Source: Candidatus Saccharimonadota bacterium (GTDB lineage: Bacteria; Patescibacteriota; Gracilibacteria; BD1-5; UBA2023). From it: 32,000 bases of DNA. The number at the start of each line of letters is the position of its first letter. Position 1 is the stretch's first letter. Made by a program: the position numbers and the translations under genes. The DNA is taken from the NCBI GenBank assembly GCA_963706795.1, contig OY970170.1, positions 90,001 through 122,000 of the forward strand, given 5' to 3'. The notes below the pieces were generated by a model that saw only the letters and a list, made by a program, of their open reading frames with translations, searched no databases and had not been told where the DNA came from. Below are positions 873 through 26,978 of this stretch, one piece after another.

Positions 873-3800
873 ATGTTTCCAGACAAGAATTTAGAAAATT
901 TCCTCAACGATAAAATCACCGACTACTCTCAGATCGGTAAGCATGCTGGAAAGCGTGATATCACTGCAGGAAAAACCCTCGATAATCTCGCGGGTATCTC
1001 GATCGGACTCGCTTCAAAAGAAGAAGTTCGCGGACTTTCGTACGGAGAAGTTCTCATCTCTGAAACGATCAACTACCGAACACAGCGCCCAGAGCGCGGA
1101 GGTCTCTTCTGTGAGCAGATCTTCGGACCACGCAAAAACTACGAATGTGCGTGTGGAAAATACAAACGAATCCGCTACAAGGGTGTAGTTTGTGAGCGTT
1201 GTGGTGTAGAAGTTACGACTGCTCAGGTACGCCGTCAGCGAACTGGACACATCGAACTCGCCGCTCCAGTTGTACATATTTGGTACCTTAAGTCAGTTCC
1301 TTCTCGTATTGGTCTCCTCCTCGATATTTCTATCAAGAAGCTCGAACAGGTTATCTACTTCGCTTCGTACATCATTACTGAAGTCTACGAAGACAAGCAA
1401 GAATCAGCAGTTGCTGATCTCGAAAATGCCTACAAGACATCAAAGATTGATCTCCAAAAGCGCGTTCAGAAGGATCTTGCTGAAGCAAATATCCAGGTAG
1501 AAGAAAAGAAACTCTCAAAGAAATCATACTCTGAGCTCGAAGCTGCGCTTACGCACCAGATCGACAATCTCGATGAGGAATACGCTCACATGAAGGAACT
1601 CCTCAAGAGTCTCAAGGTTTCAACTGTTATCGGAGAACTCGACTACCGAATCATGTACGACAAATTCCCTCATGTATTTAAGGGAGGAACGGGTGCAGAA
1701 CATATCAAGACTCTCCTTGAGCGTATTGATATACGTGCATTTATTGCCGAACACCAGACTGAGCTCAAGACTGCTCCAAAGTCTAAGCAAAAGAAGATTC
1801 TCCAAAAGCTCAAGCTCGCGTCGAGTCTCTTTAAGTCAAATCAGCGTCCAGAACATTTTGTTCTTGAAGCGATTCAGATCCTTCCACCGGATCTTCGCCC
1901 GATGATTCAGCTCGATGGAGGACGTTTTGCGTCATCTGACCTCAACGATCTCTACCGACGTGTTATCAACCGAAACAACCGTCTCCGCAAGCTTATGGAG
2001 CTCGGAGCTCCTGAGGTTATCCTCAAGAACGAAAAGCGAATGCTCCAAGAAGCAGTCGACATGCTCATCAACGGTGATGTTCGTTCAAACCGACCAGGTT
2101 ATACAACTGCTACAAAGAAAAAGCTCAAGTCACTCGCTGATATCCTCAAGGGTAAGCAGGGACGTTTCCGTCAGAATCTCCTCGGAAAACGTGTCGACTA
2201 CTCAGGACGTTCGGTTATCGTCGTAGGTCCAAGCCTCAAGATGAACGAATGTGGACTTCCAAAGAGTATGGCCCTCGTTCTCTTCCGACCGTTCGTTATC
2301 GGACGCATGATTGAGAAAGAAATCGCCTACAATGTGAAGCACGCTGAAAAGATCATCGAAGATAAGGGAAAAGAAGTATGGGACGCTCTCGACGAAGTAA
2401 TTGAAGGAAAACACGTTCTCCTCAACCGAGCCCCTACTCTTCATCGTCTCGGTATTCAGGCATTCAAGCCAATTCTTATCGAAGGAAAGGCGATCCAGCT
2501 CCACCCTCTCTGCTGTACTGCGTTTAACGCGGACTTCGACGGAGACCAGATGGCGGTTCACCTCCCACTCACCAACGAAGCTCAAGAAGAAGCAGCGTCA
2601 CTCATGGTGACATCTCGCAACATGCTCAATCCAAGTAGTGGAGAGCCAATCGTTGCACCAGGTCTCGACATGGTTCTCGGTTGCTACTACCTTACAAAGT
2701 CAAACAAGACAGAAGCGATCAACTTTTCATTCTCTGACGGAAACGATGCAGAAAATGCATACGACAATGGAGTTATCAAGCTCCAGACTCCAATTCGTCT
2801 CCGAATGGATGGTGTTATCGTAGAGACAACATACGGGCGATATATCTTCAACCAGATTGTTCCTGCCGAGCTCGGATACGTTAATGAAACCCTCGGAAAG
2901 TCAGCTCTTAAGAAGCTCCTCTCACGATCGTTTGATATCCTCGGTTCTGAGCCAACAGCATTCTTCGCTGACCGCATCAAGAATATTGGTTTCAAGTACG
3001 CAACTCTCTCGGGTCTCTCTATCTCCAAAAATGACATGATCGTCCCTGAAACTCAGGACGAGCACATCAAGAACGGTGAAGAGCGAATCAAGGCAATCCA
3101 AAAGGCATTCTGGAACGGTCTCCTCACAGAGCGCGAGCGCTATGAGCAGTCAGTCAAGGTTTGGTCTCAGGTAAAGAACATCATCGAAAAGGAACTTAAG
3201 CCATACTACGACGACACAAACTCGATCTTTAATATGATCGACTCTGGAGCCCGAGGTAACTGGGGTAACGTCACTCAGCTTTGTGGAATGAAGGGTCTCG
3301 TTGCTTCTCCATCAGGAAAGACGATCGAACTCCCAATCAAGGCCAACTATAAGGCGGGTCTCTCAGTTCTTGAATACTTCATCAATACCCATTCAGGACG
3401 TAAGGGTAAGGCCGATACTGCCCTCAAGACCGCTCAGTCAGGATACCTCACACGTCGTCTCGTTGACGCCGCACAAAATATCCTCATCCGTGAGCACGAT
3501 TGTGGAACAGTTCACTACGAAGAAATCCACCGCGAAACTTCAAAGTCTGTCTTCCGCGAATCAATGGACGACAAGATGTTCGGTAAATTCCTTGCAAAGG
3601 ATGTCGTGATTGGTGGTAAGGTTATCATCGAAAGCGGAACAATTATCGACAAGGATGCACTCAAGATTCTTACTGAAAATGCGGTCGAGAGCGTATGCGT
3701 TCGTTCTATCCTCACTTGTGAGACAGAAGAAGGTGTATGTCAGAAATGTTATGGTCTCGATCTCGGTTCTAACCGCCTCGTTACAGAGGGAACTCCAGTT

Positions 3801-4892
3801 GGTATTATCGCCGCTCAGTCTATCGGAGAACCAGGTACACAGCTCACGATGCGTACATTCCACTCGGGAGGAGTTGTGAAGGAAGGAGGTGACATCACAC
3901 AGGGTCTTACTCGTGTTGAAGAACTCCTCGAAGCACGCAATCCAAAATACGAAGCACTCATCTCAGAAATCGAAGGTGAAATCGCTCAGATCCGATACGA
4001 AGGAAAGAGTCTCTTCATTACGGTTCAGGCAAACAAGATCGAGTCTTACGAGTTCTATCTCGCAGATGAGACATTCAAGCCGACAATAAAGGTTGGTGAA
4101 AAGGTCAACGAAAAGCAGATCATCGCGAAATCAAAGGAAACAAAGGGGAAGGTAGTTACTACGCACGACGGTATCGTTGAGCGCATCGACACGAACCTCA
4201 TCATCGTTCGCGATGAGAAGCCACGAACTGTAGAATACATCGTCATGGCCGGTAAGAACCTCCTCGTCAAAGAAGGCGACAAGGTCCGAGTTGGAGACAA
4301 GATCACTGAAGGTCATATCAATATCCAGAACCTCATGGAACTCGCTGATGCGATTACTACTGAGCTCTATATCGTTAATGACATTAAGGAAATCTACTCT
4401 TCTCAGGGTCAGACGGTTAACTCAAAACATATCGAACTTATTGTTCGACAGATGTTCTCAAAGATCAAGATCACCAACGCTGGAGATTCCTCTTTCTTCC
4501 CTGGAGATATCGTTGATATCATCGCATTCAAGAAAGAAAACGAAATCCTCGGACGTGAAGGAAAGCGCGAAGCCATCGGTACTCGCCTCCTCCTCGGTCT
4601 CACAAAGATCTCTCTCTTCACAGAGTCTTGGCTCTCTGCAGCATCGTTCCAGGAAACAGTCCGTGTCCTCGTTGATGCCTCTACTGCCAAAAAGATCGAC
4701 AAGCTCGATGGTCTCAAAGAAAACGTTATCATCGGACGCCTCATTCCAACGCTCAAATACTTCGAAAACAACCGCGATGTCGGTGAGTACTTCGGATCTG
4801 ACGATCCAGAGCTCGAGTTCGAATCACCATTCTCAAAGATGGCCCGACGAGAACAACTTCTCGAAGAATACGAACAGTCAATGAACGTCTAA
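873..4892 (+). CDS. rpoC: DNA-directed RNA polymerase beta' subunit (1339 aa)
   Basis: Single long ORF with a zinc-binding CACGKYKRIRYKGVVCERCGVEV segment and the catalytic NADFDGDQMAVHLP motif. It lies directly downstream of rpoB. I chose ATG 873 over the TTG at 816 used by the ORF track. TAA stop at 4890-4892. No in-frame TGA in 1339 codons. Confidence 0.95.
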   Translation: MFPDKNLENFLNDKITDYSQIGKHAGKRDITAGKTLDNLAGISIGLASKEEVRGLSYGEVLISETINYRTQRPERGGLFCEQIFGPRKNYECACGKYKRIRYKGVVCERCGVEVTTAQVRRQRTGHIELAAPVVHIWYLKSVPSRIGLLLDISIKKLEQVIYFASYIITEVYEDKQESAVADLENAYKTSKIDLQKRVQKDLAEANIQVEEKKLSKKSYSELEAALTHQIDNLDEEYAHMKELLKSLKVSTVIGELDYRIMYDKFPHVFKGGTGAEHIKTLLERIDIRAFIAEHQTELKTAPKSKQKKILQKLKLASSLFKSNQRPEHFVLEAIQILPPDLRPMIQLDGGRFASSDLNDLYRRVINRNNRLRKLMELGAPEVILKNEKRMLQEAVDMLINGDVRSNRPGYTTATKKKLKSLADILKGKQGRFRQNLLGKRVDYSGRSVIVVGPSLKMNECGLPKSMALVLFRPFVIGRMIEKEIAYNVKHAEKIIEDKGKEVWDALDEVIEGKHVLLNRAPTLHRLGIQAFKPILIEGKAIQLHPLCCTAFNADFDGDQMAVHLPLTNEAQEEAASLMVTSRNMLNPSSGEPIVAPGLDMVLGCYYLTKSNKTEAINFSFSDGNDAENAYDNGVIKLQTPIRLRMDGVIVETTYGRYIFNQIVPAELGYVNETLGKSALKKLLSRSFDILGSEPTAFFADRIKNIGFKYATLSGLSISKNDMIVPETQDEHIKNGEERIKAIQKAFWNGLLTERERYEQSVKVWSQVKNIIEKELKPYYDDTNSIFNMIDSGARGNWGNVTQLCGMKGLVASPSGKTIELPIKANYKAGLSVLEYFINTHSGRKGKADTALKTAQSGYLTRRLVDAAQNILIREHDCGTVHYEEIHRETSKSVFRESMDDKMFGKFLAKDVVIGGKVIIESGTIIDKDALKILTENAVESVCVRSILTCETEEGVCQKCYGLDLGSNRLVTEGTPVGIIAAQSIGEPGTQLTMRTFHSGGVVKEGGDITQGLTRVEELLEARNPKYEALISEIEGEIAQIRYEGKSLFITVQANKIESYEFYLADETFKPTIKVGEKVNEKQIIAKSKETKGKVVTTHDGIVERIDTNLIIVRDEKPRTVEYIVMAGKNLLVKEGDKVRVGDKITEGHINIQNLMELADAITTELYIVNDIKEIYSSQGQTVNSKHIELIVRQMFSKIKITNAGDSSFFPGDIVDIIAFKKENEILGREGKREAIGTRLLLGLTKISLFTESWLSAASFQETVRVLVDASTAKKIDKLDGLKENVIIGRLIPTLKYFENNRDVGEYFGSDDPELEFESPFSKMARREQLLEEYEQSMNV

Positions 4893-4988: not shown

Positions 4989-6293
4989 ATGAATATAGAG
5001 CACTCTAATTATCATTCTAAGAATCTTGTCTGAGCGGGTATCTCGGACTTTTTTCCTGATGATCAGGGGCATCTTTTTTCTCACGAAGAACAATCTCAAG
5101 TGCTTGAGTCTTCCCTTGCTCAAAATGGTATTTTTTGTATACAACTTCCCAAATGAGTCCTTGCAAGCGAGATGCCCGAACTCTTGCATACGCAGCTCGA
5201 CCAGGCCTATGAACTGGACAGGATTCGTCTCGAAAATCACAGAATAGCGAACGGACTTATTGAGCCCGTTCGTGATCCAATCGATCCGCGCTGAAAGTAC
5301 CATCCAGAAGAAAAACGCTTCTGCAATAATGGATGGATGGCTCCGGATGGCACCATTCATCTCTGTCACTGGCATGATCCAGGACATGATCCATACGCGC
5401 CCTATTTTCTCCTTGATACTATCAAAATGCGAAGTCTCGGATTTTCTGTAGGCGAAGCAAGACGCGTTGCTGAAAACCATTCGCTCAGTGCACAAGGATG
5501 GATCAAGCTCCATCGTGAAATATTTCAGATCACCAGCTGGACTCCAGAGCAACAAGCAATGATAAAACTCTGGACAGAAATCATGCCCGACACACAAACT
5601 CGTGACCTTTGATTTATAGATCGTGGCGAGAAAGCTAAAAAGCTTGATCTCGAGAAAACTCGTACACAAATTTTAGGCGCGATTGAGTTCAGGCAAGAAA
5701 TTGATTCACTTGGGACCACGCCTCTCTTTTTTTCGAGAAATTCATCTTCACGAGATATTGAGCGAATCATTACTCAGCGCTTTGGAAAGATCAACGCTCA
5801 GATATTTATTGATCGTCTTATAGATAGCTCTGTAGCGCAGCGTGCCATGGTCGCAATCTCTCCACAGTGAGATATGTTTTGTTTTGTGCCAAGACTCAGT
5901 CCGCGTGGTATGGAGCGATATGATGACGCGTATGATCCGTATTACTTTGACATAGGATATATGAATTCCCTCAATTGGGATGATGACTATATTGAGCACA
6001 CTGACGGCTTCTATCCATATTTTCAAAAACGAGGATATCTTGTGTTTGGTCTTGCACGGTTCAAAACGCATCTCGATGTTGCCACCGAAAAAGTTACTAA
6101 ATGGAGAGAGCAAAAACTTGCACAGAAGGACGATAGTGATAATGAAATCTCTATTCCGGAAACTATCATTACCGAATCCCAACTCACCGCCATGAAGCGA
6201 TGGAATGAATTTTTTGATCCGCTCACCGCAAAAGCAAAAAAGGCCTACGATGCAGAAAATCTCGCAGATGATAACTCTGATATTCCATTCTAA
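4989..6293 (+). CDS. Hypothetical protein (434 aa), continuous only if TGA=Gly
   Basis: The plus frame is open from ATG 4989 to TAA 6291-6293, with in-frame TGA at 5031, 5154, 5292, 5610 and 5868. It joins track ORFs 5337..5612 and 5874..6293. The amino-acid composition is balanced, and a strong terminator follows at 6301-6332. The overlapping minus-strand ORFs look like antisense shadows. No family recognised. Confidence 0.6.
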
Positions 6294-6300
6294 AGCCAAA

Positions 6301-6332
6301 ATAAAGCCTCCCGAATTGGGAGGCTTTATTTT
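6301..6332. terminator. Bidirectional terminator hairpin shared by convergent genes
   Basis: AAAGCCTCCC (6303-6312) pairs with GGGAGGCTTT (6318-6327), giving a 10-bp stem with loop GAATT. T-rich tracts flank it on both strands. It sits 8 nt after the plus-gene stop and 1 nt after the minus-gene stop. Confidence 0.85.
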
Positions 6333-6333
6333 G

Positions 6334-7215
6334 CTAAGAGAATATCCACGGAGCAATCGTATTAAGGATAAATCCTACCAAAAAGAGAAGCACCAGCCCC
6401 ATGATGAGCTTACTAATGCGCCCCTTTGCCTTAGTGCGAGATCCTTCGTCATCGGCACTGAGTGACCACTGGATTCCAGAGAGTACAATCATAAGTACTC
6501 AGAGAAGTGCTGTAATAAATGTCGCGTACTTGATGAGTCCACCAAGGAAGCCTTGTACTGTGGCAAATCCGCCCTGCACTGTACATTGATATTTTGCCTT
6601 TTCGACACCTCAAGTCGCAATCTGTACACAGTTTGCTCCAGGGATATTTTCGGTGGTTGTAATTTTAAGTGCTCACTTCTTTGATGAAGATGAACTCGGT
6701 GCAGTACTATCCGTTGATGAAGTCGCGGCATCTGATGGGGTAACCGGCGCCCCTGCCGCATCGAGCGTCACAGGCTGACCATCTCAACCAGAGACTGTCA
6801 CGGAACCATCAGGATTTACTTTTACATTTGATTGCCCGCCATCTCCAACATGTGCAATTTCGTAGGCTTCGACCGCCTTTTGTTGTTCGGGCGTCATAAC
6901 CTTGCTACTTGGAGTAGCTGTGGTGTTCACATCCTTCGCTCCAGTTGACGGAGTTCCGTCAGCATTTTTATAGAGACCTGAATTATTTTGTGCTTCTTTT
7001 ACAGACTTTCCTTTGTCATCATTCGCACTCGAACTCGCTGGAAGTCCACTCTGACCGGCTGGCGGATCCGTATAGGTAATATTTCATTTCGCATCTTTTG
7101 TACCAATACTCGTTCCATCGCCACCGTAGATAATTTCATCAGCAAAAATTGGATGAATTCCCTGCAAGAGACCGAGTATTACAACCAAAAGGCCCGTCGT
7201 GAATATTTTTTTCAT
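6334..7215 (-). CDS. Secreted protein (293 aa) with a C-terminal VirB2/TrbC-like ('T4SS pilin'-type) two-helix hairpin
   Basis: Signal peptide MKKIFTTGLLVVILGLLQGIHPIFA, then an S/T/G/P/D-rich region of about 190 aa. A Cys pair (NCVQ...YQCT) precedes the hairpin TM-GIQWSLSADDEGSRTKAKGRISKLIMGLVLLFLVGFIL-TM. In-frame TGA codons occupy 7084-7086, 6784-6786, 6673-6675, 6610-6612 and 6499-6501. TAG stop at 6334-6336. Confidence 0.75.
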
Positions 7216-7219
7216 AATC

Positions 7220-8137
7220 TTAGAGTTTGAAATCAGCGAGATCCTTGAGGAAAGTATAGCTCGCAAGAAGAATAATCACCGCAATAAAGGTATTAATCAC
7301 AATGGATTTTCCCTTCTTGGCACGCTCCTCGTCACCGGCAGAGCTGATATAGTACCAAGCACCGAGTGTGAGGAAGAAGATCGCAGTGGGTCCTGCAAAA
7401 AAGAGAGCGAGATTAGCAAGCGATGCAAACATCGACTGGCCACTTGGGATATTACCCGAGTAGGCAACCGACACCCATGCCTGGATAACACCGAGGAATA
7501 TGAGTGCTAAAAATCCATAGAGCGCCTGGTTTTTGGCAGTCTTTCGAGCTTCGTCATTGCCGCCAGAAACGATGAGTTTAAAGCCGGCGAGCGCAAAGAA
7601 AAATATCGCAAATCCGATGATACCAATACGGATGAAGGCAATAACTCCATTCTCGATGGTTGAATTCCAGACATCAAAATTTACAAAAATATTCGTTCCG
7701 CCCTTTTGCGAAGAGACAAAGTCGCTATTCGTGGGGGTTCAGGTGATGTCCTTCCCGCCTCATTCCCTGCCTGCTGTAAAGACGTTATAGAGCTGACCAG
7801 GAATATTGACGAACAAAAATGCGATTACCGCGTAGACGAGTTGGCTTTTTTGTTTGGAGAGTTCGCCTTCATCGCCGTATGCGATCACCATCATAATACC
7901 GGCATAGACGATAAAAATGACTGCGAGACCATTGACGATGACCTTGGCGGTTGAGAGGATATTACGGCCGGCATTGCCGACTTTTTCGACGGTGGATTCA
8001 CCCGCGAGTGGCCCCATAGAAGTCGTCGAGAGCTCCCCTGCCCCTGGAATAACATCAACCCCCGCATTCACCGAAAAGGTTGCGAGGGTAAGAATTCCGA
8101 GGATGAGTGTGAGTGTTGCTTTTTTGAATATGGACAT
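7220..8137 (-). CDS. Signal-peptide protein (305 aa) made of three tandem VirB2/TrbC-like TM hairpins (six TM segments)
   Basis: It joins track ORFs 7760..8188 and 7220..7474 through TGA codons at 7760-7762 and 7739-7741. Signal peptide MSIFKKATLTLILGILTLATFSVNA. There are three repeats of TM, an acidic loop ending in K, then TM: ..AYGDEGELSKQKSQLVYAV.., ..VSGGNDEARKTAKNQALYGF.. and ..SSAGDEERAKKGKSIVINTF... ATG 8137 lies 1 nt after the pilT stop. Confidence 0.75.
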
Positions 8138-8138
8138 G

Positions 8139-9203
8139 TTATTCATCATTCGTGAAGTAGCCGATGTAGTCTTCTTGTTTGACGACACCGCCCGCTGCCA
8201 GCTTGTCAGCCGATGCGCGCATGGAGATCATACCTTCTTGGCTTCCAAGTTCAATATTATTATTGATTTGGATGAGGTCTCCGGATTTTATGAGGTTTTT
8301 GATCGCTGGTGTAATGAACATAAGCTCATGAATACCAACACGACCGTGCCCCTCCGCACGAGGAATCAGACGCTGCGAAAGCACTCCAAGAAGCGAATCC
8401 GCCAAACGCACCCGAACCTGCACCTGAATATCAGGCGGGAAAAACTGGATCAAACGATTAATTGTCTGCACCGAACCCGAGGTATGAAGCGTTGAAAATA
8501 CCAGATGACCCGTTTCTGCGAGATTCATTGCGGCTTCGACCGTCTCTTTGTCTCGCATTTCACCGACCATAACGATGTCAGGATCTTCACGCATCGCAGC
8601 TCGGATGGCTGATACAAACGAATCCGTATCGCGCCCAACTTCTCTCTGTGAAAATATTGATATTTTGTCTGTAAAAATGAATTCTATCGGATCTTCGATC
8701 GTAACGATATGCTCTCTACGGCTCTCATTAATACGATCAATAATCGATACCATCGTCGTCGACTTACCCGAACCTGTCGGCCCCGTGATGAGGAAAAGCC
8801 CCTGCTTTGCAGCCAAAATCTTGTTTACGCCCTGGGGCAAACCAAGGTCCTCCATCTTTTTAGCTTCGCGTTCAATACGACGAAGAACAAATCCTACCTT
8901 CCCGAGTTTAAAAAATCCATTTACACGAAAAGGCGTTCCATCGCGCGATACATAGGCGAAGTCGACATCGTGCTTTGCATAAAATGCAGTTTGATTGTCC
9001 TTGTCACCCTTAAAAAGCTCAAGTGCGAGAGCATCGGCAATTTCAGGCGTGATCTTGCCAGCTTCCTGCAGCTTTGCGAGCTCGCCGTGGACACGAAACG
9101 CGATAAATTCTCCCTCGGCAATATGGATATCCGATGCGGTGATCTTGATGGCATATGCGAGAATCCCCTCGAGGGAGAAACCTTGGTTTGTGTTTTCGGA
9201 CAT
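8139..9203 (-). CDS. pilT: PilT-like type IV pilus retraction ATPase (354 aa)
   Basis: Walker A GPTGSGKSTT, Asp box IVTIEDPIEF, Walker B DPDIVMVGEMRD, His box TGHLVFSTLHT, and a PilT-type AIKNLIKSGD motif. The length is typical of PilT rather than PilB. No in-frame TGA. Confidence 0.88.
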   Translation of the reverse strand: MSENTNQGFSLEGILAYAIKITASDIHIAEGEFIAFRVHGELAKLQEAGKITPEIADALALELFKGDKDNQTAFYAKHDVDFAYVSRDGTPFRVNGFFKLGKVGFVLRRIEREAKKMEDLGLPQGVNKILAAKQGLFLITGPTGSGKSTTMVSIIDRINESRREHIVTIEDPIEFIFTDKISIFSQREVGRDTDSFVSAIRAAMREDPDIVMVGEMRDKETVEAAMNLAETGHLVFSTLHTSGSVQTINRLIQFFPPDIQVQVRVRLADSLLGVLSQRLIPRAEGHGRVGIHELMFITPAIKNLIKSGDLIQINNNIELGSQEGMISMRASADKLAAGGVVKQEDYIGYFTNDE

Positions 9204-9206
9204 AAA

Positions 9207-9857
9207 TTATGCAGGAATTTCTTTAGTAAGCATGGCGATAACTTTTTGCGCGCGTTTGCTATCTGCTTCGATTTTCTGAGTCTCTTCTTCTTTAGCCTTA
9301 GCTTCTGCAAGGATACGCTCGCTTTGTGCAATAAGATCAGCTTTCTCATCGAGAAGTGCCTTAATCTTTGCTTCGTCTCGTTTTACATTTTCCTGGATCT
9401 TGGCAATCGTTGCAGTAATTGTACTATCGAGATCCATCGTATCTGAAACTTCAGCAAGATCGAATGCTTCCGTTGCTTTTGGCTCGACAACTGCAGCGAA
9501 TTCTTCTCTCGTTGCGTTTACGGTTTCGATTACTGGAAGTGATTCGATCGTATCAATAACTGATTCAGGAGCTTCGGATACTGGATCAAAAAAGAGATCG
9601 GTTGCTTCGGAAGCGGCTGAAACTGTATCAGTTGAAGCAATAACTGGCTCATCAAAAGTAACAACATCAGCTGTAGTTTCTTCGTCTGCAAAGGCAGAAA
9701 TATGAGGAGCTTCGGTAGCAGGCTCGTCATTTAAGATCAAAAAGTCAGAAGTCGCAAGAGAAGTATCCGACTCAGGAGCTTCAGTAGTTACGGGAGTTGC
9801 CACAGCAGTCGCTGTTTTTGAAGAAGACGAATCGTCAGCAAAATTAAAGAAATCCAT
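9207..9857 (-). CDS. Acidic low-complexity protein with a C-terminal coiled coil (216 aa)
   Basis: ATG-to-TAA ORF whose stop lies 3 nt before the pilT ATG. The N-terminal two-thirds are rich in D/E/T/A/S. The C-terminus (IAKIQENVKRDEAKIKALLDEKADLIAQSERILAEAKAKEEETQKIEADSKRAQ) has heptad-like character. No family recognised. Confidence 0.65.
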   Translation of the reverse strand: MDFFNFADDSSSSKTATAVATPVTTEAPESDTSLATSDFLILNDEPATEAPHISAFADEETTADVVTFDEPVIASTDTVSAASEATDLFFDPVSEAPESVIDTIESLPVIETVNATREEFAAVVEPKATEAFDLAEVSDTMDLDSTITATIAKIQENVKRDEAKIKALLDEKADLIAQSERILAEAKAKEEETQKIEADSKRAQKVIAMLTKEIPA

Positions 9858-9906
9858 AGAGAGACATTAATAAATACTTCAAAAGGCTACCACAACGTTG
9901 AAGCAT

Positions 9907-9934
9907 TTGCAAAAAACGCGGAGAGTTCTATAAT
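9907..9934 (+). promoter_or_regulatory. Candidate promoter for ybaB (TTGCAA-N16-TATAAT)
   Basis: TTGCAA at 9907-9912, a 16-nt spacer, and a perfect TATAAT at 9929-9934, 24 nt upstream of ATG 9959. It lies in the divergent intergenic region. Confidence 0.45.
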
Positions 9935-9958
9935 CACCCCGTTTTTTTCACTACCAAT

Positions 9959-10258
9959 ATGGATTACTCAAAAGCCAAAGATTTGCTCAAGCTCCAGCAA
10001 GAAGCACAAAAAATTCAGAACGAACTCAGCAATATCCACATCGAAGCCGAAGTCGACGGTGTAGTTATCACGGTTGACGGCCAGATGAAGATCATCGGTG
10101 TCACCATCGAAGACGAATCCATCCTCAAAGACAAAACCCGCCTCGAAAAATCCACAATGGAAGCGATCAACAAGGGTATCAAAAAATCCCAAGAAATCGC
10201 CGCAGAAAAAATGAAATCCGTTATGGGAAGTATGGGATTGAATTTACCTGGGATGTAG
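9959..10258 (+). CDS. ybaB: YbaB/EbfC-family nucleoid-associated protein (99 aa)
   Basis: Size and layout are typical of the family: N-terminal helix LLKLQQEAQKIQNEL, then EVDGVVITVDGQMKIIGVTIEDESI, then a C-terminal helix and a GLNLPGM tail. Confidence 0.8.
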   Translation: MDYSKAKDLLKLQQEAQKIQNELSNIHIEAEVDGVVITVDGQMKIIGVTIEDESILKDKTRLEKSTMEAINKGIKKSQEIAAEKMKSVMGSMGLNLPGM

Positions 10259-10453: not shown

Positions 10454-11152
10454 ATGCAGAAAATACCATTGGCATTTATTACAGTGCTTTGTCTCCTTGG
10501 ACTCACCTCATGCAACAACATTTTTAAGAATCAGACAGATAGCTGACCAGACGAAAAAGCAACAGCTATCAAAGCACTCTCGACCGAATATATAAAAAAT
10601 GTGCAGCCCGTAGACTTCTCGCTCACATATACAGGTTTTATCCTCGAACCATTTACCCAAAGCAGTACACTGACGCTCTCAGGCTGAACGATCTACAACA
10701 AAGACAAATCACAAAGCGGCATGCTCACGCAGGAAGTCTGAGCTAATCTCTATAAAAAATGATCGAACTGGTACTACGATCGATCGAATATACTCCGAAG
10801 TCCCACCGGTGATAGACAAGATCTCACCCCAGAAAAAACAGAATCCATCAAACTCAATTTTGTTCCCTGATTCACAAAAATGCGTCTCCTCTGAAAAGAC
10901 TACGCATTCAACGAAGCAAATCTCACTAAGAATGGCCAGATATTCGACCTTACAATTTCACTTAATAAATGAGAAGCTACCGTCATTCAGTTAGAAAACT
11001 CCAAAGAAAAAGCAAACCGACAAGCCCTCTTTGATGAATACGACAAAAGGGTTGCCGCCATCAAATCCAAGTACATGTCCGACCCCTACACGATGAATTC
11101 CCTCATCGACGAGCTCAACAAGGCCTACCAACTCGACGCAACAAAATTCTAA
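10454..11152 (+). CDS. Putative lipoprotein (232 aa), continuous only if TGA=Gly
   Basis: MQKIPLAFITVLCLLGLTSC is a signal peptide with a lipobox-like Cys. The frame is open to TAA 11150-11152, with 7 in-frame TGA (10544, 10685, 10739, 10760, 10868, 10892, 10970). Under the standard code no ORF of 60 aa or more appears in this frame, so the whole gene is fragmented and missed. Confidence 0.65.
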
Positions 11153-11169
11153 ATATTCATTCTTCTCAT

Positions 11170-12300
11170 ATGAAAAAATTTCTTCTCTTTGTCGGATTTA
11201 TTCTCTCGGTATCAATCGCTCATACCTCGTTCGCAGCATCGAGTATGTTGGATTATACGTATATTGATTGTCATGCAGGAAATGACACAACTGCTGAACC
11301 ATTCAATAGTACAAAGCCTTATAACACCCTTTATGCAGGCATATACTCTAGCATCAATTATATCAACGGTTTTTGGAATATTCCTGCTCAGGCACAAAAC
11401 GTACTTGGAAAGAGATTCGTTATTAAAGTAAAGGCTGGATGCGTATTTGATGGACTGAGTCAAAATGGGTACATACCCCTTTACTTCAATGGGAATGTCT
11501 ACAAAAATGATCTACTCATAACATCATCTGATGAAAATAAAACATTTGGTGTTCAATCAATCTACCTCTATGACGGCGGGTACACAACAAGTGGCTTGGT
11601 GTTTAAAAATGTAGATTTTATGGCTTCGTTAAATAATAGTTCATATATCTATCTAAATAATTCACAATGAAGCACCATACAGAATAGTATCATTCGCTGT
11701 AAGACGTTCGCTTGTATAAATAATTCAGGCTCTAGTAACTCAAATATTATTGTAGATAATTCAATCATTAAAATCACCTCAACAAATACTGCTTGAGACA
11801 CTATTTTCCATGTGCCATGAATTATTCGAAATTCTAAAATTGAATACACAGTTGCCAATGGAGCAACAAGCCGTCTAGTATTTGGATGAATCACAAGTAA
11901 AGTACAACTTATGCTTTGAAACATTATTGATGCCTGAAATCAAGAAGTAGCGATAAGTTGACCAGATGCAATAACAAACAAATTTACGAATATCAAAAAA
12001 CTCAGTCCAGGTCCAATTTTTGCAAATAATACAGTCCAAAATACACAGCCGATTACTGTATCAAACTGACAATATACAATAAACAATGTATTTACGGGCG
12101 GATACACAGACTCCTACGATCCATCAAATCTACGTAGAAATTTTAGTTCAGCTCAGACTACAGGTGGCGTAGGTTGGCTCTATCAGAAAGCTCTTGGAAC
12201 GATGCTGGAGTCCAATTTTACTGACCGATCACTCTACCAGCAATACACAGGAAATACTATGGGTGACACAAGTTCGCCAATTTATCTCATGTTCCGATAA
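11170..12300 (+). CDS. Secreted Asn/Ser/Thr-rich protein (376 aa), possibly a parallel beta-helix
   Basis: Signal peptide MKKFLLFVGFILSVSIAHTSFA. Track ORF 11170..11670 extends through 8 in-frame TGA (11668, 11794, 11818, 11887, 11917, 11935, 11959, 12067) to TAA 12298-12300. Recurrent turns such as IQNSIIRC, VDNSIIKI and IRNSKIEY suggest beta-helix coils. That fold assignment is inference only. Confidence 0.7.
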
Positions 12301-12341: not shown

Positions 12342-15300
12342 ATGTTTTCGCTCAAGAGGAATATTTCATGGATTACAATCGGCACGGTATTGTCGCTGGT
12401 CATCAGTTTCAATGTATTTGCCGTAGACTACGCAAATACAATCGGAATATATGGGACTTGATTCAACAATACACTGGATGCTGATGCCAATCTTATTTCG
12501 TCCGATTATTTCACGGGATATGTCGGGGATTACTGAACCAAGTACACTCCTCCACTATTCAATCCAGAGGAATCAAATCTCGTGATGAGTAATTTTACTG
12601 GGGTAATATGAGACTACGGAAGCAAATTTTTGCTTACAGAAGCATCTGGAAGCCTACTAAGCATAAACGATTTCAAGGGAACAATTGGTGACTATGGTTC
12701 AAAATTTGATCTCAATCTTCCAACAGGCCCACTACTCAGTTTCAATCAGTTCACTGGTAGTATCTGAGACTATGGTACTCAGTTTAGTAATACCCTCGAT
12801 CCATCAGTAAATTTATTACCTAAGGCAAAATTTACTGGTTATATTGGTGCGTATCAGGACGCCCCTCGCCTTTCGCAGTTCACCTCAGGTCGCGTAGACA
12901 AGCTGGATTTTCAGCTTGCAGCCGCTTCATCCGATCCCGAAAGCACAAAATGAATCCGCACACCAAATATTCATGCGGCAAAAAAACAAATAACAGAAGC
13001 GAGAAATGAGGTTGATCCCGTAGAGCTCTCCACAGGAGAATTCGTCTACGATAATACCCTCATGCAGTTCCCAAGCACGGGACTTGGGTACAATTTCAGT
13101 ATCAAATACCGCTCGCAGGTATCGTTCACTGGATCACTGGGTTATAATTGGACACACACATATGACAGAAAACTCTATCAGAACGCTGATGCCTCGGTAA
13201 CTTACCAAGATGGCGATGGAGCAATGCATACTTTCAAACCTTCGAGTGATGGATACGAATACCTCACTGGGTACGAAGCAAATCTCTCAAAGACTTCGTC
13301 TGGAGGATATTTGATCACATTCAAGAACGGAAACACAGAAACCTTCAACGATCAAGGTCTTACAACTCAGAGTGCAGATGCGAACGGGAATACTCTCACG
13401 TATTCGTACAACACACTCGGACAACTCACACTCGTACAAGATCGTTTCGGACGCACTGCGACATACGAATATACCGCTGCAGGATATATCTCTCGGGTAA
13501 CTGACAATACTGGAAGATCCGTGATACTTGCTTACTACGACGGAACAACCGCGGATGGATACGACGGAGATCTCAAGTCCATCATCTTGCATAATTCTGA
13601 AACGAGTGAGAAGACGATCGGATTCACGTATTTCAAATCCTCAGATCCAAGCCTTGCACACAACCTCATCTCACTCATCGATTCGAAGGGGCAAATCTAC
13701 GTCACAAATACATACGATACCAACGACCGCGTCCTCTCACAACACTACGGAGACGGGACTGGAAGCTTCGAATACACACTCGCAGATATCCATGCCGACG
13801 ATACACCAGCAAGCATCGGAAGCGGTGCAGTGATCGGGCAATATATCGTGAAAAACCATGCCACTGACAAGGAAGGAAATATCACTGAGTACACATACAA
13901 CCGCCTCGGTAATGTCATCAAGAAGGAAGTATTCGCAAAAGATGGTACAAGTAGCAATATCACCCGCTACACCTACGACACCGTTTGACGCATCACTGCC
14001 GAGATTTTCCCACGTGGGAATGGAACGGCATGGGGATACAACACTGCAGGTAAGAAAATCGAAGCACGACAGAAATCAGATATTTCAGCACCAAACAATG
14101 ACTCGCAGGATATCATCACACGATATTCTTACGATGCTACGACGAACAAACTGCTTACCACTACCCTTCCAGACGGCAGTGTCATCACAAATACATACGA
14201 CTCACGAGGCAATCTCACACGAGTCACTCAGGGCGGCGTAGTTCTCGCTCTTGGAGGATCGATGAACACGATCGCACAGGCATTTGTATACTCAGACCGC
14301 GGAGAAATACTCTCGACACAGGACGCAGAGGGGAACTTCACACAGTTTGCGTATTCGGGTGCAAACGTGATCCAAAAAACAACTGGATCATGAGCGAGTA
14401 CCATCACAGAATCATATTCCTATGATACTCACGGGAATCGCACCAGTCTCAAAGATGGTGAAAATAATACTACTGCCTACGAATACGATCCATTCGATCG
14501 TCTCATCTCAACTACCAGTCCAAAGTGAGTTCGTACCGAATACGGCTACGATGCGAACAACAACCGCCTCTTTGAGCGAGTACTCATGGGTACTGGTAAA
14601 ATTACCCAGACTCAATACACCTATGATATCCTCGATCAGGTCATCACAAAAACATCCGACATCGACACAACTCACACGCTCGCCGAGCGCACCACCTACA
14701 CGAAGAACGGAAAACCAAAAACCCTCACGATCGAAGGAGGTCCAACTAAGACATTTGTATATTCTCCAGATGAGAAAATCATCTCCGAGACCCTGAGTGC
14801 ATCTGGGATGACTTCAGCGGTCACGACCTACGAATACGATGCAAACAGCAATCCGATCAAGATCACTGATCCGCTCGGACGTATTACACGATCAGAATAC
14901 GATGGATTCGATCATCTGATCAAGACTATTTCACCAAGTGGAGTGAATACACTCTATAGCTATGACGTGCTTTGAAATCTCTCAAAAACTGAGACCCTCT
15001 CCCCTACTGGAGTTCGTCTGAGCCTGAGTGAAACCGTGACAAATTCTCTGAAGAAACCACTTGCGCAAACCCTCTACCAACTCGACATTCAAGGGAATGT
15101 TATCGCCTGAGCTGCGCACCGTACTCAGAAGTTCGCCTACAACAAAAACTCAGCCGTCATCCTCGAGACCAATCCACTTGGGGGAGTTACCAGCTCACAG
15201 TACAATTCACTCGGACAGCTCACGAGCAAAGTCGACCCCACGAATACCACGACCACCTATGCCTACAATCCTCGCGGTCTTGTCGCTCAGGAAACTACGA

Positions 15301-18122: not shown

Positions 18123-18123
18123 T

Positions 18124-18399
18124 ATGAAACAATCATTAAAGAAAATCAGAATAGCAATAATCTATTTGCTTGTAGTATTGCCGTTTCCATTTATTTATTA
18201 TGAATTGGGAATTTTCTTATTTACATTTAGTTATCAACATATCTTCATTTGTTCAACTCCAATGGGATATTGTGGCGAAGAAGAAATTAAGAGTCTGTTA
18301 TTTTCAATAGTCACAGCTACAATATTTATCTCAGTAATATATTACTTGGTATTTCGCATACTAAAGTGATACATCGATAGCAAATCAAAAGACATATAG
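18124..18399 (+). CDS. Small membrane protein (91 aa); candidate immunity protein for CT1
   Basis: The ATG lies 1 nt after the Rhs TAA (cgcTAAtATG). Hydrophobic segments IAIIYLLVVLPFPFIYYELGIFLFTF and LLFSIVTATIFISVIYYLVF. It reads through TGA 18367 to TAG 18397-18399. Confidence 0.6.
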
Positions 18400-18419
18400 G
18401 TATATATTGGACAAAGATT

Positions 18420-18890
18420 ATGCAAAAAATTACATTCCTTCTGTTTAGCACTCTTTTAGCACTAGTACTTATTAAGTTTACTTTTAGTTTATTCAAGGAA
18501 AGCCCTGTTAACCTTGCCATAACAACAAATAATACTGATGCTCAGACTTTAGAAGGTTTTCTTGCAGAGCTCAAAGCCTCTGGACTTATTTGTGAGGATA
18601 GCGGACAAGTAACTTTTTATATCTTGGATAATACTAAGTCTAAGGTAGTAGGTAAGGCGACCTGAGATACAGAATCAAAGATCATAGGAATGTGCAAGAA
18701 ATATTGAATTGCCGAAATATGGAAACAGAATGATTATATACTCTTCTCAATGCTTGGTCCTATTAGATGACATGGATTTCTACGTTACTATTCCGATAGG
18801 ATTCCAAAAGATATACAAGACAAAGGAGTAGACGGCGAGCTCAAAGCAGTAAATTCGAATTGGATACTTGTTACACCAACTCCAAATTAA
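18420..18890 (+). CDS. Signal-anchored or secreted protein (156 aa), second gene of the CT1 cassette
   Basis: Begins MQKITFLLFSTLLALVLIKFTFSLF. Track ORF 18420..18665 extends through TGA 18663, 18705 and 18768 to TAA 18888-18890. No family recognised. Confidence 0.55.
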
Positions 18891-19918
18891 GACAGGCGCT
18901 CAGCAAAAAAACTGAGGATGAAGTAAATACAACTACTGAGTATGTATACGGTATCGGAGGAATGGATGATGTAGTAGCTTCTGTGTCTTCTTCGGGAGAT
19001 GTGAGGTATTTCTTACATGATCATCTGGGATCGACGGTAGGAGTGATGGATGAGAGTGGAGAGATGATTCAGGAGTATTCGTATGGAGTATTTGGGGATG
19101 TGCATGTGAAGAGTGGAAGTGGAGGGTTTGTGAGTGGTAGTTCGCTTATTACTTCGAGACTATTCACTGGAAGAGAATATGATGCGGAGACTGGATTGTA
19201 TTATTACAGAGCAAGAACGTATGATGCTGCTTTGGGTAGATTCTTGCAGAGAGATCCGATTGGGACGGATGATCAGGTGAATATGTATACGTATGTGAGG
19301 AATAATCCAATGAAGTGGGTTGATCCGAGTGGGATGAGTACAAAAGAGTTTATTGCAAAACACGATGCAACATCACTTTTGGAAAAATATATGAATGATG
19401 CGCGAGACGAACTTAGTTTCGGATGAGTATTTCCAAAATGGGGGTACTCACAAATCGATTATGGCGTATGATCATTTTCAGCAAAAAAATGGAACATAAA
19501 ATATAACGTAGATTTCCAGACTCTTGCATTTGATCCTTCGAATAACAATCAATCTTGTGCGACCTATGGAAATAATTGAGCATGATGATGCAAAGTATAC
19601 ATTGAGTGAGAATCTGTCGAACTCTCAGAATTATGAAATTTTCTAATTTGATATAATTGAGTTTACGCAGGTTATACCCTAAACGATCCTGATAACGTTG
19701 CAGATATTTATAAATCGGGGATGTTTGTAGAATACAATTTAACAAATGAAAAATGAACAGATAGAACAAGGGAAGCTGCACTAAACGATGAGCTACAGGA
19801 TCGCAAATGGTATGATATTGGCTACAAAAAATGAGCCAGGGAAATGACTGCAAAATGGGGATTTCAGAGAGATCAAATATCACTCAAAGAGGCTATTATT
19901 TATTGAAACACCCGCTAA
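18860..19918 (+). CDS. Orphan Rhs fragment 1: last ~130 aa of the Rhs core plus a toxin tip identical to CT1. No ATG start; probably silent
   Basis: Homology to the main gene begins at EYVYGIGGMDD (18940). The fragment contains the DPIG...DPSGM core end and then the same tip as 17541-18122. The frame is open only from 18800, the first ATG is internal, and TTG 18860 is the only possible start. TAA stop at 19916-19918. Confidence 0.6.
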
Positions 19919-19919
19919 T

Positions 19920-20195
19920 ATGAAACAATCATTAAAGAAAATCAGAATAGCAATAATCTATTTGCTTGTAGTATTGCCGTTTCCATTTATTTATTATGAA
20001 TTGGGAATTTTCTTATTTACATTTAGTTATCAACATATCTTCATTTGTTCAACTCCAATGGGATATTGTGGCGAAGAAGAAATTAAGAGTCTGTTATTTT
20101 CAATAGTCACAGCTACAATATTTATCTCAGTAATATATTACTTGGTATTTCGCATACTAAAGTGATACATCGATAGCAAATCAAAAGACATATAG
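19920..20195 (+). CDS. Duplicate copy of the 91-aa membrane protein (candidate CT1 immunity)
   Basis: Translation is identical to 18124..18399 at offset +1796. Confidence 0.6.
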
Positions 20196-20215
20196 GTATA
20201 TATTGGACAAAGATT

Positions 20216-23968: not shown

Positions 23969-24010
23969 AGCAAGAAAATTATCACAGCAATATTAGTCTA
24001 TAATGCACAC

Positions 24011-26916: not shown

Positions 26917-26978
26917 GTGGATTGGTTTTGTTTGTGTATTCATGGCTTTAGCAATACTAGCACAGTATCCCATGGAGT

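What the first reader, a model, noticed from the sequence alone, without database searches (positions are those of the whole stretch)
7220..8137. Single polypeptide made of three tandem VirB2/TrbC-like pilin hairpins
After recoding two TGA, the gene downstream of pilT encodes a signal peptide followed by three consecutive units of TM helix, short acidic loop ending in K-x-x-K, then TM helix (..YGDEGELSKQKS.., ..SGGNDEARKTAKN.., ..SAGDEERAKKGKS..). Each unit resembles the C-terminal hairpin of the small 'T4SS pilin'-type proteins that are abundant in CPR genomes and of VirB2/TrbC. Those are normally single-hairpin subunits that polymerise. A covalently triplicated version is something I have not seen described. 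It could be a pre-assembled filament or pore segment, or a polyprotein processed into monomers.
Basis: partly seen in the sequence, partly recalled or inferred. Interest (0 to 1): 0.7.

Follow-up and report, generated by a model that had tools for sequence, protein, structure and literature searches.

The report
Three pilin hairpins fused in one protein
A Gracilibacteria gene encodes one membrane protein made of three fused copies of the small hairpin unit that normally builds secretion-system pili; the design is conserved across the lineage and I found no paper describing it, so it may show how these tiny parasitic bacteria build their cell-surface conduit.

Summary
On the minus strand, 8137..7220 is one 305-codon gene once its two in-frame TGA codons are read as glycine (code 25). 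It encodes a signal peptide followed by three homologous two-helix hairpins. Together they score 56 bits against Pfam T4SS_pilin (PF18895).

- TGA = Gly is shown directly. Of 271 TGA-containing alignment columns with a majority residue, 224 are Gly and none is Trp.
- Eight orthologues have no TGA at all.
- The protein is not a one-off. At least 149 species genomes, all Gracilibacteria, Peribacteria or unclassified Patescibacteria, encode an orthologue.
- Helix and loop lengths are invariant across 83 orthologues.
- A single-hairpin pilin gene follows it in 67 of 84 loci.
- Upstream lies either pilT (27 loci, including this window) or a VirD4-like coupling ATPase plus a second three-hairpin paralogue (29 loci).
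- Other Patescibacteria carry fusions of 2 to 11 hairpins.

No paper I could find describes fused VirB2-like pilins. The likeliest role is an unprocessed, pilin-derived six-helix membrane component of the patescibacterial type IV secretion or pilus apparatus, either a platform or a covalent three-protomer building block. The link to VirB2/TrbC proper is weak, and function is inferred. I rate it a new variant of a known kind, interest about 0.6.

The parts
7220..8137 (-). HP3 gene: 305 codons under code 25. Signal peptide followed by three T4SS_pilin-type hairpins in one polypeptide.
   Evidence: Translation; PF18895 at 56 bits in three stretches; 139 homologues of about 300 aa; colinear alignment.
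8066..8137 (-). Predicted Sec-type signal peptide (aa 1-24, MSIFKKATLTLILGILTLATFSVNA|G).
   Evidence: N-terminal hydrophobic peak. Its length of 21-27 aa is conserved in 83 orthologues. No prepilin-peptidase motif is seen. The cleavage site is inferred, not computed.
7775..7960 (-). Hairpin 1 (aa ~60-121): helix, loop YGDEGELSKQK, helix, ending in the near-invariant N-I-P-G motif.
   Evidence: PF18895 at 30.7 bits alone and TrbC at 13.4 bits. Invariant and near-invariant columns N111 and P113.
7736..7762 (-). The two in-frame TGA codons (7762-7760 and 7738-7736), read as Gly, inside variable linker 1.
   Evidence: TGA = Gly statistics; linker 1 is 22-42 aa long across the family.
7457..7651 (-). 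Hairpin 2 (aa ~163-227): helix, loop SGGNDEARKTAKN, helix.
   Evidence: PF18895 at 24.6 bits alone; hhalign against unit 1 gives E 1e-13.
7235..7423 (-). Hairpin 3 (aa ~239-301): helix, loop SAGDEERAKKGKS, helix. This is the most conserved part of the protein.
   Evidence: PF18895 at 26.1 bits alone; mean majority-residue frequency 0.74-0.79 against 0.52-0.62 for hairpins 1 and 2.
6334..7215 (-). HP1 partner gene (293 aa, 5 TGA): signal peptide, Ser/Thr-rich extension, IPG..C...C module, and one C-terminal T4SS_pilin hairpin ending APWIFS. Its start is 4 nt after the HP3 stop.
   Evidence: PF18895 at 34.9 bits; an orthologue lies downstream of HP3 in 67 of 84 loci.
8139..9203 (-). PilT-family hexameric ATPase gene. 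Its stop is 1 nt before the HP3 start.
   Evidence: TIGR01420 at 386.7 bits, above the 319.1 cut-off; pilT lies upstream of HP3 in 27 of 84 loci.
9207..9857 (-). First gene of the apparent operon: an acidic, low-complexity protein with a C-terminal coiled-coil-like region and no family match.
   Evidence: No Pfam hit. Homologues lie upstream of pilT, or directly upstream of HP3 (L006, L060), in related loci.
9959..10258 (+). Divergently transcribed ybaB/ebfC, a conserved neighbour of the pilT-type arrangement.
   Evidence: PF02575 at 56.5 bits; present in most pilT-type loci and near the 7-hairpin gene of a Peregrinibacteria contig.

Best explanation
The gene encodes one unprocessed polypeptide, translated with UGA as Gly. 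After Sec-dependent insertion and signal-peptide removal, it sits in the cytoplasmic membrane as six helices, that is three VirB2-like hairpins. The N-terminus, the C-terminus and both linkers face outward. The three short zwitterionic G-D/E-E...K..K loops face the cytoplasm. It is a fixed core part of the Gracilibacteria version of the patescibacterial type IV secretion or pilus apparatus. I propose that it acts as a pilin-derived membrane platform or pore segment: three pilin protomers already joined side by side. On this platform the co-encoded single-hairpin pilin (HP1, which carries the variable exposed domain) assembles. A hexameric secretion ATPase docks against its conserved cytoplasmic loops; that ATPase is PilT-type in this genome and VirD4-like in other lineages. 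In this reading it fills the role of the polytopic VirB6/PrgH-type component, which has not been detected in Gracilibacteria. Shown: one ORF, three homologous hairpins, family-wide conservation, the gene partners. Inferred: topology, lack of processing, the platform role, ATPase docking.
For: Single ORF and code 25. Three homologous PF18895 hairpins. Ancient and fixed architecture: at least 149 species genomes encode it. Helix and loop lengths are invariant in 83 orthologues, and only the two outward linkers vary (22-42 and 11-15 aa). Aligned against window hairpin 1, hairpin 1 of other genomes is mostly ~35-65% identical, whereas hairpins 2 and 3 are ~16-30% identical. A paralogue (HP3-A) is colinear over all three hairpins, so the triplication predates that duplication. 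These features fit non-equivalent positions in a defined complex better than interchangeable filament subunits. In the AlphaFold2 model of the closest full-length homologue (64% identical), there are six long helices in three hairpins and linker 1 is disordered (pLDDT 78). In the window protein's own sequence, K+R residues are several-fold denser in the loops than in the linkers, which is consistent with loops facing in. Partners: HP1 lies downstream in 67 of 84 loci. Upstream is pilT in 27 loci, or HP3-A in 29 loci (26 of them with a VirD4/TraD/TrwB-like ATPase that has N-terminal membrane helices). Intergenic gaps in the window are 3, 1 and 4 nt. Literature: VirB2-like pilins are a recognised, essential part of the patescibacterial T4SS (PMC10633639, PMC12857230). 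VirB6 homologues are reported as absent in Gracilibacteria (PMC12102498).
Against: There is no experimental or structural evidence for any step beyond the sequence. The reported absence of VirB6 may simply reflect sequence divergence. The protein has no detectable similarity to VirB6/TrbL (no Pfam hit; no PDB hit). Fusions with variable copy number (2-11, some with near-identical repeats) in other Patescibacteria suggest open-ended side-by-side polymerisation rather than a closed channel of fixed composition. Seventeen of 84 loci have no ATPase gene adjacent, so PilT adjacency may be only lineage-specific synteny. I could not establish whether this genome also has the VirD4-like ATPase and HP3-A elsewhere (one search was inconclusive). 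The AlphaFold inter-hairpin packing is only moderately confident (pTM 0.53), and I could not inspect the coordinates.
Confidence: 0.42

Rival explanations
1. Covalent-trimer pilus subunit. HP3 is itself extracted from the membrane and polymerises, alone or with HP3-A and HP1, into an extracellular VirB2-type helical tube. Every third subunit contact is replaced by a peptide linker on the outer surface.
For: Homology is to pilins. All termini and linkers are predicted on the outward-facing side, where VirB2/TraA termini lie in solved pili (my own knowledge of the F- and T-pilus structures). Concatemers of 2-11 hairpins exist. One sits inside a tandem array of six single-hairpin pilin genes (L088). 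This argues that fused and free hairpins co-assemble in an open-ended lattice. A review raises the possibility that the patescibacterial T4SS elaborates pili (PMC12857230).
Against: The three hairpins are strongly diverged from each other, but each is conserved in its own position. The number is fixed at three with no indels in helices or loops. Six helices would have to be extracted at once. HP1, not HP3, carries the variable exposed domain expected of a surface filament. No patescibacterial T4SS pilus has been reported as observed in the papers read here.
Confidence: 0.28
2. Polyprotein. The precursor is cleaved in both linkers, for example by signal peptidase acting after helices 2 and 4, which have signal-peptide-like orientation. 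This would release three different single-hairpin pilins in exact 1:1:1 ratio.
For: Helices 2 and 4 run inside-to-outside like signal peptides. Fixed stoichiometry of three non-equivalent pilins would be useful. Canonical VirB2/TrbC pilins are proteolytically matured (my own knowledge).
Against: I saw no conserved small-x-small cleavage motif after helix 2 (conserved N-I-P-G) or after helix 4 (W..(V/I)A(Y/F).G, where the -3 position is often K, Q, N or R) in the alignment. Linker 2 is only 11-15 aa. In the same genomes the single-hairpin pilin HP1 is encoded as a separate gene with its own signal peptide, so fusion is not needed to make monomers.
Confidence: 0.08
3. Not part of a secretion or pilus machine. 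HP3 would be a six-helix membrane protein of another function (small transporter, membrane organiser, holin-like protein). Its match to PF18895 would reflect only a generic hydrophobic hairpin with a charged turn, and the neighbouring ATPases would be coincidental.
For: Fold and PDB searches give nothing specific. Hairpin models match any helical hairpin. Weak spurious hits to MatE, Oxidored_q3 and Mntp appear in some members. Seventeen loci have no adjacent ATPase.
Against: The match includes a specific loop motif shared by all three units and by PF18895. Eight of 88 members also hit TrbC, down to E 5.8e-6. Related lineages repeatedly link multi-hairpin genes with VirD4-like ATPases (26 Gracilibacteria-type loci; one Peregrinibacteria contig) and with single-hairpin pilins (HP1 in 67 of 84 loci; an Andersenbacteria pilin array).
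Confidence: 0.12
4. Two or three separate genes or a pseudogene, because UGA terminates here.
For: Under table 11 the frame is broken at 7760-7762 and 7736-7738.
Against: TGA = Gly statistics over 532 sites; eight TGA-free orthologues; no start codon for hairpin 2 under code 11; window-wide, a 1,926-codon Rhs gene carries 25 in-frame TGA.
Confidence: 0.01

Closest known systems
VirB2-like pilin arrays of the patescibacterial T4SS (Southlakia epibionticum ML1; Quinonero-Coronel et al. 2025, PMC12102498; Wang et al. 2023, PMC10633639)
   Same: Same Pfam family (PF18895). Same hairpin with a Sec signal peptide. Several divergent hairpins are used together. In related lineages they are associated with T4SS-type ATPases. 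Phylum-wide abundance: 40,983 cluster representatives at E<=1e-3.
   Different: There the hairpins are separate genes (arrays of 2-11), each with its own signal peptide. Here three are fused in one chain with a single signal peptide, in fixed number and order, and they are far more conserved than array members (reported mean 25% identity). In this window the neighbour is pilT, not virB4.
Canonical conjugative pilins VirB2/TrbC/TraA (Pfam PF04956 and relatives)
   Same: Two hydrophobic helices joined by a short charged loop. Both ends are on the outer side of the membrane. The protein is Sec-inserted before assembly.
   Different: Sequence similarity is marginal: 13.4 bits for the window, below the 27.9 cut-off. 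Canonical pilins are single hairpins of about 70-120 aa that polymerise with phospholipid. I know of no fused multi-hairpin form. There is no outer-membrane complex in these monoderm-like cells.
VirB6/TrbL/PrgH polytopic T4SS membrane subunits
   Same: A polytopic (at least 5 helices) cytoplasmic-membrane protein encoded next to T4SS ATPase and pilin genes. VirB6 is reported missing in Gracilibacteria, which leaves the role open.
   Different: No detectable sequence relationship. HP3 is built from pilin repeats. Equivalence of role is only an inference.
Archaeal Ced/Ted DNA-import systems (ATPase CedB + polytopic CedA + small hairpin proteins CedA1/CedA2); from my own knowledge, not tested here
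   Same: A minimal gene set of one VirB4/VirD4-superfamily ATPase, one polytopic membrane protein and VirB2-like hairpin pilin(s) in a single-membrane cell. This is comparable with the four-gene cluster of VirD4-like ATPase, HP3-A, HP3-B and HP1.
   Different: No sequence match beyond a 17-bit, sub-threshold CedD hit for the ATPase. CedA is not made of pilin repeats.
Multi-hairpin proteolipid (c/K) subunits of V- and A-type ATPases (analogy only; my own knowledge)
   Same: A two-helix hairpin that normally oligomerises side by side has been duplicated or triplicated, or fused further, into one chain. Copy number varies between lineages.
   Different: An unrelated protein family and machine; closed rotor rings rather than a pilus or secretion channel.

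Membership tests
Pfam PF18895 T4SS_pilin | HMM score at or above the gathering cut-off (26.6 bits) | tested here: met
   56 bits for the whole protein in three stretches. Units alone score 30.7, 24.6 and 26.1 bits. 83 of 88 family members match.
Pfam PF18895 T4SS_pilin | Signal peptide followed by helix, short charged loop, helix near the C-terminus | tested here: met
   Present three times behind one signal peptide. The single-unit AlphaFold model is a helical hairpin with pLDDT 88.
TrbC/VirB2 pilins (PF04956) | HMM score at or above the gathering cut-off (27.9 bits) | tested here: not met
   The window's unit 1 scores 13.4 bits, E 0.095. 8 of 88 relatives reach E<=0.1, best 5.8e-6.
TrbC/VirB2 pilins (PF04956) | Fold matches solved conjugative pilins | tested here: inconclusive
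   Foldseek against PDB with the three-hairpin and one-hairpin models returned only generic helical hairpins (14-3-3 and others), with no E<=0.001. Profile searches of PDB sequences found no pilin.
TrbC/VirB2 pilins (PF04956) | Encoded in a T4SS cluster with a VirB4/VirD4-type ATPase | tested here: inconclusive
   Not in this window, where the neighbour is pilT. Orthologues in 26 loci follow a VirD4/TraD/TrwB-like ATPase.
TrbC/VirB2 pilins (PF04956) | Single-hairpin subunit that polymerises with phospholipid into a pilus | not testable with these tools
   The protein is a three-hairpin chain, which departs from the single-hairpin norm. Polymerisation needs experiment.
VirB6/TrbL/PrgH | Sequence match to a VirB6-type family model | tested here: not met
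   No TrbL/VirB6 family among the Pfam hits at E<=10 for the window or E<=0.1 for 88 members. No PDB hit.
Type IV pilins (T4P, class III signal peptide) | Short basic leader ending in Gly, then a hydrophobic helix with Glu at +5, cleaved by prepilin peptidase | tested here: not met
   The N-terminus MSIFKKATLTLILGILTLATFSVNA|GVDVIPG is a Sec-type signal peptide with no G|FxxxE motif. This was read directly from the sequence.
Genetic code 25 (UGA = Gly; Gracilibacteria/SR1) | In-frame TGA aligns with Gly, not Trp, in homologues | tested here: met
   532 TGA sites. Mean Gly fraction is 0.41 against a background of 0.076; Trp is 0.002. The majority residue is Gly at 224 of 271 sites.
PilT/PilU ATPases (neighbour gene) | TIGR01420 score above cut-off | tested here: met
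   386.7 bits against a cut-off of 319.1. VirB11 and DotB models score far below their cut-offs.

The most novel reading that the evidence does not exclude
Fused hairpin chains (3 here, up to 11 elsewhere in Patescibacteria) are extracted from the membrane and woven into an extracellular VirB2-type tube. The filament would then be partly stitched together by peptide bonds. That would be a previously unknown assembly principle for conjugative-type pili. It would also give a plausible evolutionary route from pilin hairpins to polytopic T4SS channel proteins, in bacteria that depend on such a conduit to feed on their hosts.
Probability: 0.25. Interest if true: 0.85.

Novelty: new variant of a known kind. 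Interest (0 to 1): 0.6.

Why it matters
In the one patescibacterium tested (Southlakia epibionticum), the type IV secretion system and its VirB2-like pilin array were essential for growth on the host. How a single-membrane cell would build or use such a pilus is unknown (PMC10633639, PMC12857230). Gracilibacteria have been reported to lack a VirB6 component (PMC12102498).

A lineage-wide, rigidly conserved protein made of three fused pilin hairpins is a concrete candidate for the missing membrane core, or for a new kind of pilus building block. It is always paired with a single-hairpin pilin and often sits next to a VirD4-like or PilT ATPase. Fused hairpins fix neighbour relationships and stoichiometry. 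That makes them convenient handles for structure prediction, cross-linking and cryo-EM of an apparatus that has so far resisted study.

The result also flags an annotation problem. These genes are split or truncated whenever code 25 genomes are called with code 11.

Tried and rejected
I modelled the closest full-length homologue P0001 instead (64% identical).
2. Foldseek against PDB gave only generic helical matches, for both the three-hairpin model and the one-hairpin model. The fold test for VirB2 is therefore inconclusive.
3. Profile searches of PDB sequences found nothing real, either with the hairpin profile (best hit a designed coiled coil) or with the full-length profile (no hits).
4. 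tRNA and Rfam scans of the window found nothing, so no tRNA-Gly(UCA) was available as code evidence.
5. I first labelled the ~940-aa ATPase of related loci 'VirB4-like'. NCBIfam, PDB and Pfam instead point to VirD4/TraD/TrwB coupling proteins, and I corrected the label.
6. The 750-aa ATPase hit 6 kb downstream in L057 lacks the N-terminal membrane domain. I did not count it as part of the system.
7. I searched the HP3-A paralogue family for locus tags from pilT-type genomes, to see whether those genomes also carry the VirD4-like cluster. None appeared among the named hits, but most hits are unnamed, so this is inconclusive.
8. The promoter and terminator scan of 6100-10100 gave no convincing operon boundaries on the minus strand.
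9. I rejected the idea that long multi-hairpin proteins are read-through artefacts of tandem pilin genes. Their internal units lack signal peptides. The Andersenbacteria and Peregrinibacteria examples translate intact under code 11.
Full report
**What is there**

The feature lies on the minus strand. An ATG at 8137 opens a frame that runs to TAA at 7222-7220. The frame is interrupted only by TGA at 7762-7760 and 7738-7736. Read with TGA as a sense codon, it gives 305 residues in this order:
- an N-terminal hydrophobic signal-like segment ending VNA|G;
- a ~35-residue outward segment;
- three units of long helix, 11-13-residue charged loop, long helix.

A ~40-residue linker separates units 1 and 2, and an 11-residue linker separates units 2 and 3.

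**Is it one gene?**

Yes. The window as a whole is only coherent if TGA is sense. For example, a 1,926-codon Rhs-repeat gene carries 25 in-frame TGA.

I collected 83 orthologues of this gene from the window and public genomes and aligned them, masking TGA.
- 532 TGA codons fall in well-populated columns.
- Those columns are on average 41% Gly (background 7.6%) and 0.2% Trp.
- Where a column has a majority residue, it is Gly in 224 of 271 cases and never Trp. That is code 25, not code 4.
- Eight orthologues have no TGA at all. In the complete genome CP060226.1 the three hairpins are TGA-free. The three-hairpin chain is therefore an uninterrupted ORF under any code.
- Under code 11, hairpin 2 of the window would have no start codon, yet it is conserved as protein.

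**Are the units pilin-like and related to each other?**

The recoded protein matches Pfam T4SS_pilin (PF18895) at 56 bits (cut-off 26.6) in three stretches. Scanned separately, the units score 30.7, 24.6 and 26.1 bits. NCBIfam gives a sub-threshold hit to the Mycoplasma ICE 'pilin-like conjugal transfer protein' (34.6 bits against a cut-off of 40).

Profile-profile comparison of the three units, each built from 26 orthologues, gives probabilities of 98%, 97.5% and 93% (E 1e-13 to 4e-7), with the loops in register.

The link to TrbC/VirB2 itself is weak. The window's unit 1 scores 13.4 bits, and 8 of 88 relatives reach E<=0.1 (best 5.8e-6). Structure-based and PDB sequence searches were uninformative. 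So this is safely a PF18895 protein. It is 'VirB2-like' mainly by that family's standing and by gene context.

**How widespread is it?**

- A protein search returned 139 homologues. Nearly all are ~300 aa, and nearly all are named 'hypothetical' or not named at all; one carries only the domain-derived label 'Type IV secretion system pilin'.
- A scan of one genome per species found relatives in 149 genomes. The 80 I retrieved are all Gracilibacteria, 'Peribacteria' or unclassified Patescibacteria.
- The architecture is rigid. In 83 orthologues every helix and loop has invariant length. Only the signal peptide, the N-terminal segment and the two linkers vary (linker 1: 22-42 aa; linker 2: 11-15 aa).
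- Hairpin 3 is the most conserved part.
- Aligned against window hairpin 1, hairpin 1 of other genomes is mostly ~35-65% identical, whereas hairpins 2 and 3 are ~16-30% identical.
- A paralogous ~310-330-aa family (HP3-A; 141 homologues) also has three PF18895 stretches. It aligns colinearly across all three hairpins. The triplication therefore predates that gene duplication.

**Neighbourhood**

In the window the genes are packed with gaps of 3, 1 and 4 nt. The order is an acidic coiled-coil protein (9857-9207), pilT (9203-8139; TIGR01420 at 386.7 bits), HP3, and then a 293-aa protein (7215-6334). The C-terminus of that last protein is a single PF18895 hairpin (34.9 bits). ybaB lies divergently upstream.

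Across 84 non-redundant loci:
- the single-hairpin partner (HP1) follows HP3 in 67. It carries a conserved IPG..C...C module, a hairpin and an APW(I/V)Y end, behind an N-terminal region of very variable length;
- pilT precedes HP3 in 27;
- HP3-A precedes it in 29, and in 26 of these a ~940-aa ATPase lies further upstream;
- 17 have neither.

That ATPase has N-terminal membrane helices. It matches DUF87, TrwB_AAD_bind and TraG-D_C in Pfam, TraD and VirD4-like models in NCBIfam, and TrwB in the PDB. It is a VirD4-type coupling-protein relative rather than a clear VirB4.

The invariant core is therefore the pair HP3 + HP1. The neighbouring ATPase differs by lineage.

**Beyond three hairpins**

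A full scan of 1.84 billion cluster representatives with a one-hairpin profile found 40,983 proteins at E<=1e-3. Among the best 150, about 100 have three matched stretches, 41 have four or more (up to 11 in 1,147 aa), and 9 have two.

These are not read-through artefacts. Internal units lack signal peptides. Two examples translate intact under the standard code. A 6-hairpin Andersenbacteria protein sits in the middle of six single-hairpin pilin genes. A 7-hairpin Peregrinibacteria protein lies 3.7 kb from ybaB and a DUF8128/VirD4-type ATPase. Fusing hairpins into one chain is thus a recurrent theme in Patescibacteria.

**Literature**

PF18895 appears in only two of the papers I could search. 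One does not concern pilin architecture. The other is the survey by Quinonero-Coronel et al. (PMC12102498). It reports VirB2-like pilins near virB4 in 1,135 assemblies and arrays of 2-11 separate pilin genes. It states that VirB6 homologues are absent in Gracilibacteria. It mentions no fused pilins.

Wang et al. 2023 (PMC10633639) and a 2025 review (PMC12857230) describe the essential pilin array of a Saccharibacterium. They speculate about a pilus on a single-membrane cell. I found no description of multi-hairpin pilins. I could not consult InterPro domain-architecture tables, where such architectures may be listed without comment.

**How it most likely works**

*Shown:*
- one chain;
- three diverged but homologous hairpins;
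- rigid geometry;
- obligatory pairing with HP1;
- frequent pairing with a hexameric secretion ATPase.

*Inferred from sequence:*
- Sec insertion, with the N-terminus, C-terminus and linkers outside;
- the three K/R-rich loops inside. In the window sequence the loops are several-fold denser in K+R than the linkers.

*Proposal.* HP3 is an unprocessed, pilin-derived six-helix membrane component. It is in effect three pilin protomers pre-joined side by side. It forms the membrane-embedded base or pore segment of the Gracilibacteria T4SS/pilus apparatus. HP1 assembles on it, and the ATPase docks against its conserved loops. It would thereby cover the role of the undetected VirB6. My confidence is about 0.4.

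*Main rival (about 0.3).* HP3 is itself a polymerising subunit of an extracellular tube. The variable-number concatemers elsewhere favour this reading. The fixed, position-specific divergence here argues against it.

*Other rivals.* A processed polyprotein is unlikely, because no conserved cleavage motif is visible and linker 2 is short. A function unrelated to secretion is possible but fits the recurrent gene partners poorly. The 'UGA stops here' reading is refuted.

**Verdict**

It is not a singular oddity of this window. It is a conserved component of this lineage for which I found no published description, and the local example of a broader hairpin-fusion phenomenon. I class it as a new variant of a known kind (patescibacterial VirB2-like pilins), with interest about 0.6.

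Noticed in passing
window 6334-7215 (-): The single-hairpin partner HP1 is 293 aa here, whereas most orthologues are ~130-210 aa. The extra length is a Ser/Thr/Ala/Pro-rich, possibly glycosylated or extended stalk inserted between the signal peptide and the conserved IPG..C...C module. The gene carries 5 TGA. Both HP3 and HP1 have an 'IPG' motif near the start of the mature protein.
   Followed up: partly
window 9207-9857 (-); L003 7859-8635; L006 7306-7992: An acidic low-complexity protein with a Lys/Glu-rich coiled-coil-like C-terminus and no family match is conserved at the head of the pilT-HP3 operon. In L006 and L060 it sits directly upstream of HP3 with no pilT between them.
   Followed up: partly
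window 12342-21699 (+): A 1,926-aa Rhs-repeat protein (RHS_repeat 256 bits, DUF6531) has a C-terminal toxin-like tail. It is followed by two further 1,796-nt cassettes, each with a 156-aa putative immunity gene and an orphan Rhs C-terminal fragment. A 300-nt segment recurs three times at 94-100% identity (17117, 18913, 20709).
   Followed up: partly
window 22745-23992 (-) and 24826-26973 (-): Two Peptidase_M23 cell-wall hydrolases. One has three S-layer-homology domains. The other has a long coiled-coil N-terminus and a weak glucosaminidase-like C-terminus.
   Followed up: partly
window 873-4892 (+) and 8139-9203 (-) versus the rest: rpoC (1,339 codons) and pilT (354 codons) contain no TGA, while surface or accessory genes carry up to ~1-4% TGA codons. 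TGA-Gly seems to be avoided in conserved core genes.
   Followed up: no
L001/L032 (CP060226.1, 'Candidatus Peribacteria' complete genome): The deposited gene calls are fragmented: AspRS split 197+267 aa, MutL 195+269 aa, ComEC in three pieces, and the VirD4-like ATPase in about six pieces. The syntenic genes of L004 and L005 are intact. The signal peptide of its HP3 contains TGA. The genome evidently uses TGA as sense but was called with code 11.
   Followed up: partly
L088 10001-11584 (Andersenbacteria PEZP01000030.1); L087 10001-11926 (Peregrinibacteria-like contig); proteins P0121, P0193, P0216: Fused chains of 6, 7, 8, 9 and 11 T4SS_pilin hairpins exist in other Patescibacteria that use the standard code. 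Some have near-identical repeats. P0193 and P0216 carry a conserved Cys before each hairpin.
   Followed up: partly
L006 9382-10389; L068 11904-12920; L065 11711-12703: In loci where neither pilT nor the VirD4-like ATPase is adjacent, a membrane-anchored ~335-aa gene lies about 0.5-1 kb downstream of the HP3 gene. In L006 it matches VWA; the L068 and L065 genes share its N-terminal sequence and were not scanned.
   Followed up: no
window 4989-6293 (+) and 10969-12300 (+): Two sizeable code-25 ORFs have no family match. One is a 434-aa protein after rpoC. The other is a ~380-aa secreted Asn/Ser/Thr-rich protein with 10 TGA.
   Followed up: no
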